Assembly (NCBI RefSeq): GCF_044324785.1
Contig: NZ_CP172127.1
From: Escherichia coli
Lineage (GTDB): Bacteria; Pseudomonadota; Gammaproteobacteria; Enterobacterales; Enterobacteriaceae
DNA length: 64,000 nucleotides
Strand: one strand, 5' to 3'
This document shows positions 4,921-44,898 of this stretch, piece by piece. Below the pieces are notes generated by a model. It was given only the letters and a program-made list of their open reading frames with translations. It made no database searches and was not told the DNA's origin. Within the stretch, counting starts at the first letter, position 1; every line of letters starts with the position of its first letter. The position numbers were made by a program, and so were the translations under genes.

Positions 4921-6198
4921 TTACTTGCTGTTAGCCGTTGCGGGGGTGCTATCAGCAGTACGAATTTTTTGGAACAGCAAAAAGGTAAAGACGATCACCA
5001 TGGCAAGCGCCGCCATGCCCATCAGCCACATATTGCGGTAGGCTTCTGCTGCGGGCAGGGTGTCTTGCCAGTGGCCGATAATTGGGTAAACGAAGACATC
5101 CGGCAGGAATCCAATCACCGAACAAATACCTACCGTGGTGCCCATAATGTAAGACGGTGTTCTTGCTTCGCCAGGGCAGGCCCAGTACAGCCCGCGTGAG
5201 GCGTAACAGGTGAATCCCAGCAGTAAAATCAGGCCAATCCCCATCGCGACCGATTGCGGGTTAGAGTTCGTGACGAGCAGGGCAGTTAACGCCAGCAGGC
5301 CGAGTACGGAAAGGATTTGGATCACGCGGGTAGGGGATTTCACTTTACTGTAGGTGGTAATAATGCCGCCAAGTGGGCCGCACAGCGCGCGGAAGATTTT
5401 GTTGATCACAATCCCCATGTAGCTCGCCGCCACCAGCGACATGCCGTACATTTCGGTCAGATAGTTGGTGGAGTAACTCAGAATGGCGTAGATGGTGAAG
5501 ACGCCAAAAATCACCATGCTGCAATACCAGGTGGTGCTGATACGCAAAACGGCCAGGATGTCGCTAAGCTGGAATGACTGTTTTTCTTCGTTATTGGCAC
5601 TGCGCAGGTTGTTGTTATCGCTAACAAAAAACCAGCACAGAATCCCCAACAAGATGTAAACCACACTGTAGATGATAATGACCGTTTTCAGGCTGGTGCT
5701 GTCATCCGGTGCAAAGCGAGAAAAGACCCACATGGTAAACACCGCCAGCGACATTACACCGACGCCGCGCAGCCCTTCCATCCAGCCCATAATTTTCCCT
5801 TGCTCACTATGATCGCCCAGCAATGAGGCGGCTTTAATCGACACCGACCACAGCATTAAAATCGTCGTTATCGCAAAGGCGATCTGAATACAGAGCATTA
5901 CCCACAGTGGTGGATATGTTGCCATTATCAGGCCCAGCAATCCGGTAATGATCATCGCGGAAGTAATCATTTTGCGGTGTGAAAATTTATCGGCAATAAC
6001 GCCGCTGGGGGCATAAAGAATAATAGCCGCAATACCAAAGGTACTCATTATTAAACCTATCTCGGTATTGCTGAATCCCATAAATTTCGCCATGGGAATT
6101 TGATAAATATAACGTAAATAAGCCAGGTCAAAACTAACGCCGCCGCTAAAACTAATTATCGCGAGGGTTATCCAACGGCGATATGAGTTGTGTTGCAT
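4921..6198 (-). CDS. yqcE: MFS transporter
   Basis: 425-aa ORF, multiple hydrophobic helices; matches E. coli YqcE; 26-bp gap to ygcE suggests an operon. Confidence 0.88.
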   Translation of the reverse strand: MQHNSYRRWITLAIISFSGGVSFDLAYLRYIYQIPMAKFMGFSNTEIGLIMSTFGIAAIILYAPSGVIADKFSHRKMITSAMIITGLLGLIMATYPPLWVMLCIQIAFAITTILMLWSVSIKAASLLGDHSEQGKIMGWMEGLRGVGVMSLAVFTMWVFSRFAPDDSTSLKTVIIIYSVVYILLGILCWFFVSDNNNLRSANNEEKQSFQLSDILAVLRISTTWYCSMVIFGVFTIYAILSYSTNYLTEMYGMSLVAASYMGIVINKIFRALCGPLGGIITTYSKVKSPTRVIQILSVLGLLALTALLVTNSNPQSVAMGIGLILLLGFTCYASRGLYWACPGEARTPSYIMGTTVGICSVIGFLPDVFVYPIIGHWQDTLPAAEAYRNMWLMGMAALAMVIVFTFLLFQKIRTADSTPATANSK

Positions 6199-38397: not shown

Positions 38398-39537
38398 ATG
38401 AGCGCGGGAAGCCCAAAATTCACCGTTCGCCGCATTGCGGCTTTGTCACTGGTTTCGCTATGGCTGGCAGGCTGTTCTGACACTTCAAATCCACCGGCAC
38501 CGGTCAGCTCCGTTAATGGCAATGCGCCTGCAAATACCAATTCTGGTATGTTGATTACGCCGCCGCCGAAAATGGGGACGACGTCTACAGCGCAGCAACC
38601 GCAAATTCAGCCGGTACAGCAGCCACAAATTCAGGCTACTCAACAACCGCAAATCCAGCCAGTACAGCCAGTAGCTCAGCAGCCGGTACAGATGGAAAAC
38701 GGACGCATCGTCTACAACCGTCAGTATGGGAACATTCCGAAAGGCAGTTATAGCGGCAGTACCTATACAGTGAAAAAAGGCGACACACTTTTCTATATCG
38801 CCTGGATTACTGGCAACGATTTCCGTGACCTTGCTCAGCGCAACAATATTCAGGCACCATACGCGCTGAACGTCGGTCAGACCTTACAGGTGGGTAATGC
38901 TTCCGGTACGCCAATCACTGGCGGAAATGCCATTACCCAGGCCGATGCAGCAGAGCAAGGAGTTGTGATCAAGCCTGCACAAAATTCCACCGTTGCTGTT
39001 GCGTCGCAACCGACAATTACGTATTCTGAGTCTTCGGGTGAACAGAGTGCTAACAAAATGTTGCCGAACAACAAGCCAACTGCGACCACGGTCACAGCGC
39101 CTGTAACGGTACCAACAGCAAGCACAACCGAGCCGACTGTCAGCAGTACATCAACCAGTACGCCTATCTCTACCTGGCGCTGGCCGACTGAGGGTAAAGT
39201 GATCGAAACCTTTGGCGCTTCTGAGGGGGGCAACAAGGGGATTGATATCGCAGGCAGCAAAGGACAGGCAATTATCGCGACCGCAGATGGCCGCGTTGTT
39301 TATGCCGGTAACGCGCTGCGCGGCTACGGTAATCTGATTATCATCAAACATAATGATGATTACCTGAGTGCCTACGCCCATAACGACACAATGCTGGTCC
39401 GGGAACAACAAGAAGTGAAGGCGGGGCAAAAAATAGCAACCATGGGTAGCACCGGAACCAGTTCAACACGCTTGCATTTTGAAATTCGTTACAAGGGGAA
39501 ATCCGTAAACCCGCTGCGTTATTTGCCGCAGCGATAA
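38398..39537 (+). CDS. nlpD: Lipoprotein NlpD (LysM + M23 peptidase-like domain)
   Basis: 379 aa; lipobox LAGCS; Gln/Pro-rich repeats; LysM and C-terminal M23-like domain; rpoS promoters expected within this gene. Confidence 0.92.
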
Positions 39538-43297: not shown

Positions 43298-43534
43298 ATG
43301 ATTTGTCCACGTTGTGCCGATGAACAGATTGAAGTGATGGCGAAATCGCCGGTAAAAGATGTCTGGACGGTCTACCAGTGCCAGCATTGCCTCTATACCT
43401 GGCGCGATACCGAACCGCTGCGCCGCACCAGCCGCGAACATTATCCCGAAGCGTTCCGCATGACGCAGAAAGATATTGATGACGCGCCGATGGTGCCGAG
43501 CATCCCGCCGCTGCTGGCGGTAGATAAGCGTTAA
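43298..43534 (+). CDS. Small zinc-ribbon subunit associated with UbiD-type decarboxylases
   Basis: 78 aa; CPRC...CQHC motif; immediately downstream of the UbiD-like gene. Confidence 0.7.
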   Translation: MICPRCADEQIEVMAKSPVKDVWTVYQCQHCLYTWRDTEPLRRTSREHYPEAFRMTQKDIDDAPMVPSIPPLLAVDKR

Positions 43535-43542
43535 TAAAAAGT

Positions 43543-43570
43543 GCCGGGTAGTGGCTTTGCTTTACCCGGC
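43543..43570. terminator. Bidirectional terminator between the decarboxylase operon and pphB
   Basis: gccgggta...tacccggc 8-bp stem flanked by A-run upstream and T-rich downstream. Confidence 0.65.
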
Positions 43571-43574
43571 CTAA

Positions 43575-44237
43575 TTACTTTATTTTATAAAATGACAGCC
43601 GCCCGCTTTTCGGCGATCCGGTATCAATATAAATCTGGTTAGCGAACGTCTGAATGTTATCAAACATCATATGTCCAAATATAAAATAATCAGCGCCGTT
43701 TATTTGTTGTAACTCGCCATTAAGCGATTTCTGCACACGATCAACAGGCCAGAGTAATTCTCTCTCCGCTATTTCTTTGCCAAAGAGATATTCATTCCCC
43801 GGATAATCTGCATGTGCGATGACATATTTTATTATGTCGTTAGTGATTTCAATAATATGTGGAAGGTGATGAAATCTCAGCAACAGATCTATTGCTTCTT
43901 GTTGTTCCGTCTCATTTAATTCAAAGAACCAGTCGCCGCCGCTGGCAAGCCACATATTGCCATCGCCGGTCGCGAACGCATCCAACGCCATCGCTTCATG
44001 GTTGCCTTTAACCGATGTAAACCAGGGCTGGTTTAGCAGGCGCAGCACGTTAAGACTCTCCGGCCCACGATCAATATTATCGCCGACAGAAATAAGTAAG
44101 TCGGTTTCAGGGCAAAAAGAGAGTTGATGTAAGCGAGATTGTAATAATTTATAGTCACCATGAATATCACCAACGGCCCATATATGGCGATAGTGATGGG
44201 CATCAATTATTTGATAGCGAGTGGTAGACATTTGCAT
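43575..44237 (-). CDS. pphB: Serine/threonine protein phosphatase 2 (lambda-phosphatase-like)
   Basis: 220 aa; GDIHGD...GDNIDRG...GNHE metallophosphoesterase motifs. Confidence 0.85.
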   Translation of the reverse strand: MQMSTTRYQIIDAHHYRHIWAVGDIHGDYKLLQSRLHQLSFCPETDLLISVGDNIDRGPESLNVLRLLNQPWFTSVKGNHEAMALDAFATGDGNMWLASGGDWFFELNETEQQEAIDLLLRFHHLPHIIEITNDIIKYVIAHADYPGNEYLFGKEIAERELLWPVDRVQKSLNGELQQINGADYFIFGHMMFDNIQTFANQIYIDTGSPKSGRLSFYKIK

Positions 44238-44323
44238 AGACTCAAATTTATATGAATGTATTATTATATCAGACCAGGGTATTGAAGTCTCTGGAGTAAT
44301 AAATTACAAAAGGATGTTTTAAA

Positions 44324-44857
44324 ATGCTGAGATATTTCTATGCTTTCCTGTTAGTTTTTTGTTTTTTCACCTCTAATGTACACGCTGCATCTATAGAAGA
44401 AATAAATCGTTTCGAAAAACTTATAACCGAAGGTGATGTAATTGAGTGTACAGCGCATTTCAGTCAGACGGAGAATAACGAAACATACCAACTTAACCTT
44501 TTGGGAATAATGAAAGTTACTTACTCTGGGGAAAGTGAAAAACGCTACCACTCGACACAATATTATCGTTTAGACGGCTTCAAAATTCCCTTTATCCGTT
44601 ATGAGATGGATATCATCGCTACTCATGAAAAATCGAAGTTAAAAGAAGAGATTGTGCCTGACAGCGTACAGGTATTTTATCCTTCAGCACCAGAGCAAGA
44701 AGCGATATTAGCAGAAGCTGTACGGAAAACCGCACCAATGTCTATTGATAATGACGATATCACATTTACGACATTTCCTGATTACCAGGTGAAAGTGAAA
44801 TCCCCCTCTATGCCAGAAGCGATGACTCAGTATTGCCAGGTGCAAACGAAAAAGTAG
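44324..44857 (+). CDS. Hypothetical secreted protein (signal peptide), low-GC gene
   Basis: 177-aa ORF; N-terminal MLRYFYAFLLVFCFFTSNVHA-AS signal-peptide-like segment; visibly AT-rich; no family recognised. Confidence 0.6.
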   Translation: MLRYFYAFLLVFCFFTSNVHAASIEEINRFEKLITEGDVIECTAHFSQTENNETYQLNLLGIMKVTYSGESEKRYHSTQYYRLDGFKIPFIRYEMDIIATHEKSKLKEEIVPDSVQVFYPSAPEQEAILAEAVRKTAPMSIDNDDITFTTFPDYQVKVKSPSMPEAMTQYCQVQTKK

Positions 44858-44865
44858 TGAATAAA

Positions 44866-44888
44866 CCCGACGGCATTGTGCCGTCGGG
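44866..44888. terminator. Hairpin terminator between the secreted-protein ORF and mutS
   Basis: cccgacggc attgt gccgtcggg; on the minus strand followed by uuuauu. Confidence 0.55.
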
Positions 44889-44898
44889 CATGTCAGGT

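What the first reader, a model, noticed from the sequence alone, without database searches (positions are those of the whole stretch)
44238..44898. Low-GC orphan ORF encoding a secreted protein between pphB and mutS
The 177-aa ORF (44324-44857) is markedly AT-rich compared with its neighbours, has a classical signal-peptide-like N-terminus (positive N-terminus, hydrophobic core, VHA-AS), and is bracketed by hairpin terminators. I recognise no family. It looks like a small horizontally acquired insert in a known recombination hot spot and could be a periplasmic effector, immunity or inhibitor protein.
Basis: seen in the sequence. Interest (0 to 1): 0.4.

Follow-up and report, generated by a model that had tools for sequence, protein, structure and literature searches.

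The report
Rare secreted ToxS-like barrel protein gene
The low-GC ORF is a real but rare E. coli gene for an exported protein of an unannotated, fast-evolving family that sits beside mutS in Escherichia and Citrobacter and is predicted to fold like the bile-sensing ToxS/VtrC barrels of Vibrio, with no partner regulator nearby.

Summary
The ORF (44324-44857, 177 aa) is real. Its GC is 38.8%, against 52% for the window. It has a Sec-type signal peptide (VHA|AS). A strong hairpin follows it, but that hairpin is the mutS terminator. The upstream "hairpin" is no better than chance.

Only 2 of 5426 complete E. coli genomes carry the gene. Nearly all others have a ~105-bp pphB-mutS spacer, and 182 have a TPR gene at that site. 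In the window the gene lies on a ~750-bp recombinant patch inside otherwise ordinary E. coli flanks.

It is not a lone orphan. Homologues of 176-181 aa occupy the same slot, convergent with mutS, in E. marmotae (78% identity), other Escherichia lineages (93%, 47%, 39%) and Citrobacter (20-23%), while MutS stays 95-99.5% identical.

No ToxR-like partner gene is adjacent, and no sequence-level homology to YqeJ was detected.

Verdict: a soluble periplasmic ToxS/VtrC-like barrel, probably binding a ligand or partner. Its function is inferred, not shown.

The parts
44324..44857 (+). CDS of the 177-aa exported protein (stop codon included). The exact protein is recorded on 228 public contigs as 'hypothetical protein'.
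   Evidence: purifying selection
44324..44386 (+). Predicted Sec signal peptide, residues 1-21: MLR / YFYAFLLVFCFFTS / NVHA, with cleavage after A21 (VHA|AS). Contains two T6 runs (44355-44360 and 44362-44367).
   Evidence: Sequence; comparison of family N-termini with the YqeJ TM anchors; low-pLDDT detached helix 2-16 in the model. A frameshift in the equivalent T7 run was seen in L007.
44387..44854 (+). Mature domain: 156 aa, 18.0 kDa, pI 4.9, GRAVY -0.55. Predicted order of elements is alpha1, beta1-beta5, alpha2, beta6-beta8, forming a lipocalin-like barrel.
   Evidence: ToxS topology from PMC13042144
44447..44449 (+). Codon for Cys42. It is invariant in the family and lies in the first barrel strand (E39-50).
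44834..44836 (+). Codon for Cys171. It is invariant in the family and lies in the last barrel strand (E167-174). It is the inferred disulfide partner of Cys42 (39+174 = 42+171 for antiparallel pairing).
   Evidence: FidL/YqeJ-type disulfide described in PMC9214523
44310..44314 (+). Shine-Dalgarno-like AAGGA, 9 nt before the ATG. It is conserved in the E. marmotae-type copy L007.
   Evidence: sequence
44237..44264 (+). Sigma-70-like promoter match (TAGACT, 16 nt, TATTAT) in the ~90-bp divergent pphB/ORF intergenic region. This is a consensus match only; the number of such matches in the region is no higher than in shuffles.
44866..44888 (.). 10-bp G+C-rich hairpin (CCCGACGGCA-TTG-TGCCGTCGGG) in the 41-bp gap between the ORF stop and the mutS stop. 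The T-run lies on the minus strand, so it is the mutS intrinsic terminator. It is positionally equivalent to the K-12 hairpin, whose stem sequence differs.
44150..44900 (.). Recombinant patch: the 5' ~80 bp of pphB, the intergenic region, the ORF and the terminator. It is 94-99% identical to strains R32 and E1V33, whose flanking genes are only 82-93% identical to the window.
43575..44231 (-). pphB (Ser/Thr phosphatase, Metallophos). It is the divergently transcribed neighbour in all Escherichia-type loci and is absent from the Citrobacter loci.
44899..47460 (-). mutS, the convergent neighbour in every enterobacterial locus found. In some loci further genes lie between it and the homologue.

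Best explanation
The ORF encodes a Sec-exported protein. After signal-peptidase cleavage at VHA|AS it should be a soluble, acidic 18-kDa periplasmic protein.

The protein is predicted to fold as an eight-stranded lipocalin-like barrel of the ToxS/VtrC type (alpha1, five strands, alpha2, three strands). A Cys42-Cys171 disulfide between the first and last strands would close the barrel.

By analogy with ToxS, VtrC and the FidL/YqeJ group, the barrel most likely holds a hydrophobic small molecule (bile-salt or lipid-like) or the periplasmic domain of a partner protein. It differs from those proteins in two ways: it is not membrane-anchored, and it is not encoded next to a ToxR-like regulator. It would therefore act alone or in trans.

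The gene belongs to a small, unannotated, very fast-evolving family. In Escherichia and Citrobacter the family is parked at the 3' end of mutS. In E. coli proper it is a rare allele (2 of 5426 complete genomes), carried on a ~750-bp patch exchanged by homologous recombination between Escherichia lineages.

Shown: the gene, its rarity, the synteny, the mosaic structure, purifying selection and the family. Inferred: export, fold, disulfide and the binding function.
For: Gene and selection:
- An intact ORF of 176-181 aa is conserved from 94% down to 20% identity.
- dN/dS against E. marmotae is 0.36, Fisher p = 1.4e-4.

Export:
- A basic n-region, a hydrophobic core of typically 10-14 residues and a small-residue site recur across most members. 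YqeJ has an 18-21-residue anchor instead.
- The mature protein is hydrophilic (GRAVY -0.55).

Fold:
- Two AlphaFold models of members only 23% identical reach pLDDT 86.3 (pTM 0.77) and 88.4 (pTM 0.78).
- Foldseek independently ranks VtrC and ToxS first (prob 1.00, TM-score normalised to target 0.51-0.59).
- The order of secondary-structure elements equals the published ToxS topology.
- The invariant cysteines lie in strand 1 and the last strand, as described for FidL, YqeJ, STM0345, SF3507 and BprQ.

Fast evolution, as reported for VtrC-like proteins:
- ORF identity is 78, 47, 39 and 23% where MutS identity is 99, 99.5, 95 and 95%.

Rarity and mosaic structure.

Weak contextual hints of a sensor or lipid link:
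- One distant member lies upstream of a dCache-GGDEF sensor.
- Two others lie just downstream of a cyclopropane-fatty-acid-synthase/DUF3833 cluster.
Against: - No ToxR/VtrA-like gene is adjacent in any locus.
- No sequence-level link was found. hhalign against a YqeJ profile gives 6% probability. No member hits any Pfam family convincingly. The profile finds nothing in PDB sequences.
- Model coordinates could not be inspected, so the disulfide geometry and any pocket are unverified.
- No signal-peptide predictor was run.
- The gene looks dispensable. It is lost from nearly all E. coli. Truncated or interrupted forms occur on about 108 contigs against about 276 with intact forms. dN/dS is 0.5-0.8 among the closest alleles, though counts are small.
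Confidence: 0.5

Rival explanations
1. Decaying relic. The gene was functional in an Escherichia/Citrobacter ancestor. In E. coli it is now a neutral passenger that survives only where recombination has not yet removed it, and it contributes nothing to the cell.
For: - It is absent from 5424 of 5426 complete genomes.
- Truncated 115-aa forms and 134/135-aa forms that start at the same point occur on about 108 contigs.
- A T7-to-T6 frameshift sits in the signal-peptide region of L007.
- dN/dS is 0.52-0.78 among the closest alleles.
- It has low GC and many rare codons (4% strict, 11% broad), typical of weakly expressed genes.
Against: - The reading frame, its length, the signal peptide and both cysteines are kept across lineages down to 20% identity.
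- dN < dS is significant against E. marmotae.
- The gene appears common in E. marmotae, with hundreds of contigs.
- The intact allele has spread between divergent backgrounds. ORF dS is 0.04-0.05 where flank dS is 0.27-0.55.
- Some truncations may be homopolymer sequencing errors or contig breaks.
Confidence: 0.2
2. Periplasmic inhibitor or immunity protein. A small secreted barrel neutralises an incoming enzyme or toxin such as lysozyme, a colicin or a T6SS effector, and evolves fast in an arms race.
For: - Sequence divergence is extreme at a fixed locus.
- The product is a small, disulfide-bonded periplasmic protein.
- Presence is patchy and alleles are exchanged between lineages.
- From general knowledge, some lysozyme inhibitors (MliC/PliC) are also eight-stranded barrels.
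Against: - No cognate toxin or effector gene lies beside it in any locus.
- There is no PADLOC, Pfam or NCBIfam match.
- The closest structures are ToxS and VtrC.
Confidence: 0.12
3. Trans-acting co-component. The soluble barrel docks onto the periplasmic domain of a membrane-tethered regulator or sensor encoded elsewhere (for example a ToxR-like regulator such as YqeI or CadC, or a sensor kinase or cyclase) and modulates it in response to a ligand.
For: - It has the same fold, topology and disulfide pattern as the sensor subunits of co-component systems.
- One distant homologue lies directly upstream of, and co-directional with, a dCache-GGDEF membrane sensor.
- C. freundii carries a genuine YqeI/YqeJ-like pair on the other side of mutS.
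Against: - Known systems are encoded as adjacent, often overlapping gene pairs, and the barrel is membrane-anchored. Neither holds here.
- No partner has been identified.
- The single dCache example is anecdotal.
Confidence: 0.15
4. Small outer-membrane beta-barrel of the OmpX/OmpW/PagL type.
Against: - The mature protein is hydrophilic and acidic (GRAVY -0.55, pI 4.9).
- It has two helices packed with the barrel.
- It ends in ...QVQTKK rather than with an aromatic C-terminal residue.
- It has a conserved cysteine pair, which is unusual for such proteins.
Confidence: 0.03

Closest known systems
ToxS periplasmic domain (Vibrio parahaemolyticus 8u2f; V. cholerae 8alo)
   Same: - The order of elements is identical: alpha1, beta1-5, alpha2, beta6-8.
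- It is periplasmic and comes from a fast-evolving family of enteric bacteria.
   Different: - ToxS is anchored by an N-terminal TM helix and is encoded next to toxR, whose periplasmic domain it binds. Here there is a cleavable-type signal peptide and no toxR-like neighbour.
- Identity is 8-11%, with no sequence-level signal.
- Bile binding has not been tested here.
VtrC of the VtrA/VtrC bile-salt receptor (5kev, 5kew, 8dml)
   Same: - It has an eight-stranded lipocalin-like barrel.
   Different: - VtrC forms an obligate heterodimer with VtrA, and the two genes overlap.
- It is membrane-tethered.
- It has no conserved N/C-strand disulfide.
FidL/YqeJ/STM0345/SF3507/BprQ group of VtrC-like proteins (Kinch et al. 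2022, PMC9214523)
   Same: - The hosts are enterobacteria, including E. coli.
- The size is about 160-180 aa.
- A conserved cysteine pair sits in the first and last barrel strands. Compare YqeJ ...ETCTANW... and ...IMHCAR with this protein's ...IECTAHF... and ...TQYCQVQTKK.
- The group is fast-evolving.
   Different: - The profile-profile comparison with YqeJ is not significant (6% probability).
- There is no PF27292 (YqeJ_C) hit.
- YqeJ has an 18-21-residue TM anchor.
- yqeJ overlaps yqeI, a ToxR-like regulator gene. This gene has no such partner.
Polymorphic mutS-rpoS region of E. coli and Salmonella (Herbelin 2000 and Kotewicz 2002, cited in PMC7232297; Ewers 2014, PMC4209514)
   Same: - It is the same chromosomal hot spot of horizontal exchange and gene gain and loss around mutS.
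- The window carries the O157-type rpoS-marR-ecdBCD-pphB arrangement.
   Different: - The passages retrieved from these papers describe the o454-nlpD/ygbI-N and fhlA-mutS segments. They do not mention this gene in the pphB-mutS spacer (term-search passages only).
- Salmonella has an uncharacterised STM2908 next to pphB and mutS. Its relation to this family could not be tested.

Membership tests
VtrC/ToxS-like lipocalin-type periplasmic sensor superfamily (co-component systems, Kinch et al. 2022) | Eight-stranded meander (lipocalin-like) barrel; in ToxS the order is alpha1, beta1-5, alpha2, beta6-8 | tested here: met
   [not shown]
VtrC/ToxS-like lipocalin-type periplasmic sensor superfamily (co-component systems, Kinch et al. 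2022) | N-terminal TM helix or signal peptide that places the barrel in the periplasm | tested here: met
   The N-terminus has a basic n-region, a 14-residue h-region and VHA|AS. The pattern of a short core followed by a small-residue site recurs across most family members. It looks like a cleavable signal peptide rather than an anchor. This is a heuristic assessment; no SignalP run was possible.
VtrC/ToxS-like lipocalin-type periplasmic sensor superfamily (co-component systems, Kinch et al. 2022) | Encoded immediately downstream of, and often overlapping, a membrane-tethered ToxR/VtrA/CadC-like wHTH regulator gene | tested here: not met
   The neighbours are pphB or ecdD on one side and mutS, hok or a small ORF on the other, in all 9 or more loci inspected. 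No Trans_reg_C gene is adjacent.
VtrC/ToxS-like lipocalin-type periplasmic sensor superfamily (co-component systems, Kinch et al. 2022) | Binds bile salts or another hydrophobic ligand, and binds the regulator's periplasmic domain | not testable with these tools
   No coordinates, docking or experiments were available.
FidL/YqeJ disulfide-containing subgroup of VtrC-like proteins | [quoted passage not shown] | tested here: met
   Cys42 and Cys171 are invariant in 17 and 16 sequences. They lie in the first (39-50) and last (167-174) strands. The bond itself is inferred from strand register and was not measured.
FidL/YqeJ disulfide-containing subgroup of VtrC-like proteins | Sequence relationship detectable by profile methods (HHsearch) or by Pfam PF27292 YqeJ_C | tested here: not met
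   hhalign of A4 against the YqeJ alignment A6 gives probability 6%. None of 17 members matches YqeJ_C, FidL or ToxS models at E <= 10. The YqeJ profile was narrow (7 sequences).
Classical lipocalins / bacterial Blc (calycin) | Pfam lipocalin signature, with a barrel followed by a C-terminal helix | tested here: not met
   [not shown]
Periplasmic lysozyme-inhibitor or immunity proteins (MliC/PliC, Ivy, T6SS immunity) | Family HMM match, a structural match, or an adjacent cognate toxin gene | tested here: not met
   [not shown]
Eight-stranded outer-membrane barrels (OmpX/OmpW/PagL) | Hydrophobic membrane-facing belt and an aromatic C-terminal residue | tested here: not met
   GRAVY is -0.55 and pI is 4.9. 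The C-terminus is ...QTKK. Two helices are integrated in the fold.

The most novel reading that the evidence does not exclude
ToxS/VtrC-type sensor barrels may also exist as free-standing, secreted proteins, uncoupled from any ToxR-like gene. This family would be the first such branch. It would be a hypervariable periplasmic ligand sensor or chaperone that acts in trans on a membrane regulator or sensor. Its alleles (20-94% identical at one fixed slot beside mutS) would be kept diverse and shuffled between Escherichia species by the elevated recombination around mutS.
Probability: 0.15. Interest if true: 0.6.

Novelty: new variant of a known kind. Interest (0 to 1): 0.42.

Why it matters
- **Annotation.** A few hundred database entries labelled 'hypothetical protein' can be grouped into a definable family of exported proteins with a confident fold model. 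No Pfam or NCBIfam model covers it.
- **Biology.** ToxS- and VtrC-like barrels are how several enteric pathogens sense bile and switch on virulence. A soluble version without a partner regulator would widen the ways this fold can be used. It also offers a simple protein to test for bile or lipid binding in Escherichia and Citrobacter, including the mouse pathogen C. rodentium.
- **Evolution.** The pphB-mutS junction has at least three states in E. coli: empty, a TPR gene, and this gene. The gene's alleles diverge far faster than the flanking core genes and are exchanged between species. This makes it a compact marker of introgression at the mutS hot spot.
- **If it is only a decaying relic,** the finding is ordinary.

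Tried and rejected
- **Curated libraries gave nothing.** Pfam and NCBIfam on the protein, Pfam on all 17 members at E <= 10 (only scattered chance hits), PADLOC and PHROGs, the family profile against PDB sequences, tblastn against plasmids and Rfam on 43400-45200 (only Hrs13 at 18.5 bits against a gathering score of 52).
- **Sequence link to YqeJ.** hhalign of the family against a YqeJ alignment gave 6% probability, so homology could not be shown by sequence.
- **AFDB Foldseek.** The library was not available.
- **Genome-wide scan.** The 17-member alignment was too diverse for the scan. The Escherichia-only alignment returned a single species representative, Escherichia sp. E1V33. That scan is pattern-based and may miss copies.
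- **K-12 spacer as a deletion scar.** A 30-nt block resembling the signal-peptide region scored p about 0.03 in K-12 but 0.40 in MSB1_7A. This was rejected as unproven. Only the terminator end shows positional homology (9 of 500 shuffles scored as well).
- **Upstream hairpin or terminator.** Rejected (z +0.56).
- **Other E. coli alleles.** The divergent L026 and L024 alleles were sought in RefSeq complete E. coli genomes and not found.
- **First try at K-12 yqeJ.** It used the wrong coordinate offset and was corrected.

Full report
**1. The observation**

The window carries a 177-aa ATG ORF at 44324-44857 on the + strand. It lies between pphB (43575-44231, minus strand) and mutS (44899-47460, minus strand).

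Its GC content is 0.388 and GC3 is 0.376. The window is 0.52, mutS 0.559 and ecdC 0.573. The 300-nt GC profile falls to 0.33 at 44200-44499. pphB is also AT-rich (0.423), so the low-GC tract spans pphB plus the ORF. Rare codons are enriched: 4.0% strict and 11.3% broad, against 1.3% and 3.5% in mutS.

The N-terminus is MLR / YFYAFLLVFCFFTS / NVHA|AS. This has the anatomy of a Sec signal peptide.

The hairpin at 44866-44888 is very stable (z -4.4 on the + strand and -5.5 on the minus strand). Its T-run lies on the minus strand. K-12, which lacks the ORF, has a hairpin at the same position after mutS (z -7.2). It is therefore the mutS terminator, shared by the convergent ORF.

The claimed upstream hairpin is no better than shuffled sequence (z +0.56).

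An AAGGA sits 9 nt before the ATG. A sigma-70-like match (44237-44264) lies in the ~90-bp divergent spacer shared with pphB, but such matches are no more frequent there than in shuffles.

**2. Distribution in E. coli**

Both megablast and sensitive blastn find the segment in only 2 of 5426 complete E. coli genomes. These are strain N3 (99.8% identity) and strain R32_14_1F (96.8%). Both annotate the gene as 'hypothetical protein' between pphB and mutS.

In 5418 genomes the flanks are present. Nearly all have pphB and mutS about 105 bp apart. A different gene, encoding a tetratricopeptide-repeat protein on the minus strand, fills the same gap in 182 genomes. The junction therefore has at least three states.

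In wider databases the exact window protein is recorded on 228 contigs. These are mostly draft E. coli or unclassified Escherichia assemblies. Truncated or interrupted forms occur on about 108 further contigs.

**3. Mosaic structure**

Window 44150-44900 covers the first ~80 bp of pphB, the spacer, the ORF and the terminator. This stretch is 94-99% identical to R32 and to Escherichia sp. E1V33. The rest of pphB and mutS are 97-100% identical to ordinary E. coli such as MSB1_7A, and only 82-93% identical to R32 and E1V33.

Synonymous divergence tells the same story. Among these three lineages the ORF has dS 0.04-0.05, where pphB has about 0.5 and mutS 0.27-0.47.

The cassette has therefore been moved between divergent backgrounds by homologous recombination, with crossovers in the pphB 5' end and at the mutS stop. 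This fits the known hot spot around mutS (PMC4209514, PMC7232297).

**4. It is not an orphan, and it is old at this site**

An exhaustive phmmer search of 1.84 billion representative proteins, plus word-indexed searches of 5.8 billion, found a small family. All full-length members are 176-181 aa, and none carries an annotation.

Genomic context was recovered for most members:
- **E. marmotae** (78% identity): the same slot between pphB and mutS. One copy is frameshifted by a T7-to-T6 change in the signal-peptide region.
- **Escherichia sp. E1V33** (93%): the same slot.
- **Two further Escherichia-like lineages** (47% and 39%): both have the arrangement rpoS-marR-ecdBCD-pphB, then the homologue, then mutS.
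- **Citrobacter freundii and C. rodentium** (20-23%): the gene lies directly after ecdD and convergent with mutS, and there is no pphB.

Across these loci MutS stays 95-99.5% identical and EcdC 97-99%, while the ORF drops from 94% to 20%. The gene is thus a long-standing and extremely fast-diverging resident of the mutS 3' flank. Its divergence does not track that of the flanks.

More distant members lie elsewhere. One is upstream of a dCache-GGDEF sensor. Two are downstream of a cyclopropane-fatty-acid-synthase/DUF3833 cluster.

Selection is purifying but relaxed. dN/dS is 0.36 against E. marmotae (p = 1.4e-4) and 0.5-0.8 among close alleles.

**5. What the protein looks like**

All 17 aligned members have a basic N-terminus. 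Most then have a hydrophobic core of about 10-14 residues followed by a small-residue cleavage-type site. E. coli YqeJ and its relatives have 18-21-residue anchors instead.

The mature protein is 156 aa, 18.0 kDa, pI 4.9 and GRAVY -0.55.

Five columns are invariant: A22, C42, V117, Y154 and C171. Near-invariant positions include G37, Y75, P120, D145 and P152.

AlphaFold2 with the family alignment gives pLDDT 86.3 and pTM 0.77 for the window protein. For the C. freundii member (23% identical) it gives 88.4 and 0.78. Both models show a detached signal helix, then alpha1, five long strands, alpha2 and three strands.

The published ToxS periplasmic structure has exactly this order of elements: alpha1, beta1-5, alpha2, beta6-8 (PMC13042144).

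The two invariant cysteines fall in the first strand (39-50) and the last strand (167-174). Their positions would face each other in an antiparallel register. Kinch et al. describe this same 'N-terminal strand to C-terminal strand' disulfide for the FidL/YqeJ/STM0345/SF3507/BprQ branch of VtrC-like proteins in enterobacteria, a superfamily they characterise as fast-evolving (PMC9214523).

**6. What does not fit**

Known VtrC-like proteins are membrane-tethered. They are encoded immediately after, and often overlapping, a ToxR-like regulator gene. K-12 yqeI/yqeJ shows this arrangement. No such regulator is adjacent in any locus of this family.

Profile-profile comparison with a YqeJ alignment is not significant (6% probability). 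No member hits the YqeJ_C, ToxS or any other Pfam model.

The structural margin over unrelated barrels is modest. The two models share one alignment. I could not inspect coordinates.

I therefore do not file the protein as a member of the co-component family. I describe it as ToxS/VtrC-like in fold and probable mode of action.

**7. Most likely mechanism and rivals**

Best explanation (confidence about 0.5): a soluble periplasmic, disulfide-closed, lipocalin-type barrel. It would bind a hydrophobic small molecule or a partner's periplasmic domain, acting alone or in trans.

Rivals:
- A decaying relic with no function in E. coli (0.2).
- A trans-acting co-component of a regulator or sensor encoded elsewhere (0.15). 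This is a special case of the best explanation.
- An outer-membrane barrel (0.03). The hydrophilic composition, the two helices and the C-terminus argue against it.

**8. Novelty and verdict**

The gene is deposited many times but has never been characterised or placed in a family. The fold assignment, the conserved cysteine pair, the fixed position beside mutS and the extreme divergence are, as far as my searches show, undescribed.

It is best rated a new variant of a known kind: a free-standing, secreted relative, by fold, of ToxS/VtrC-type sensor barrels. Interest is moderate (0.42). Function is unproven, and the gene is dispensable and rare in E. coli. It does offer a simple, testable protein and a neat example of allele shuffling at the mutS hot spot.

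Noticed in passing
L004 3678-4541 (E. coli TC_EC10), equivalent to the window's 44232-44898 gap: A different gene, an 864-bp tetratricopeptide-repeat protein on the minus strand, fills the same pphB-mutS gap. It is present in 182 of 5426 complete E. coli genomes at >=99% identity. The junction therefore has at least three alternative states.
   Followed up: partly
L016 10893-12190 and 7846-7998 (Citrobacter freundii): On the promoter side of mutS, C. freundii carries a YqeJ_C-like gene plus a Trans_reg_C (YqeI-like) gene. This is a genuine co-component pair, within a few kb of the family member. A hok/gef toxin gene lies between the family member and mutS.
   Followed up: no
L024 11478-14462 and 8213-8623; L025 likewise: In the lineage with the 39%-identical allele, a phage-type integrase and the Kiwa defence genes KwaA/KwaB sit next to the mutS promoter side. 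An extra unannotated 136-aa ORF lies between the homologue and mutS.
   Followed up: no
window 44354-44368; L007 about 5853-5860: The signal-peptide coding region contains homopolymer T runs (T6-G-T6 in the window, T7 in E. marmotae). A T7-to-T6 contraction frameshifts the copy in L007. The 115-aa truncated forms recorded on dozens of E. coli contigs start at Met63, consistent with similar upstream lesions. These could be real inactivation, slippage or sequencing error.
   Followed up: partly
window 44866-44888 compared with L003 1220-1248 (K-12): The mutS terminator hairpin keeps its position and strength in the window and in K-12, but the stem sequences differ at several paired positions (CCCGACGGCA/TGCCGTCGGG against CCCGATAGC/GCTATCGGG). 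On the + strand it lacks a T-run, so ORF transcripts might read through antisense into mutS.
   Followed up: partly
window 44225-44237: pphB has two in-frame ATGs here (MQMSTTRYQ...). RefSeq annotation of the near-identical strain N3 uses the inner one (218 aa). The first codons of pphB belong to the recombinant patch and differ from K-12 (MSTTRYQIID against MPSTRYQKIN).
   Followed up: partly
L013 529-2816; L015 148-8531; L027 1120-7531: Distant family members (24-30% identity) lie outside the mutS region. One is directly upstream of a dCache-GGDEF diguanylate cyclase. Two are just downstream of an amine-oxidase/DUF1365/cyclopropane-fatty-acid-synthase/DUF2878/DUF3833 cluster.
   Followed up: no
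window 38398-39537 compared with L001 2207-3300: nlpD is intact (379 aa) in the window. It is annotated as frameshifted in strain N3, which is otherwise 99.8-100% identical across the pphB-mutS stretch compared. The window is therefore not simply that record.
   Followed up: no
Salmonella SPI-1 flank (literature, PMC7232297): In Salmonella Typhimurium, pphB and an uncharacterised gene STM2908 lie together next to mutS, on its other side. Whether STM2908 belongs to this family could not be checked, because no Salmonella sequence was accessible.
   Followed up: no
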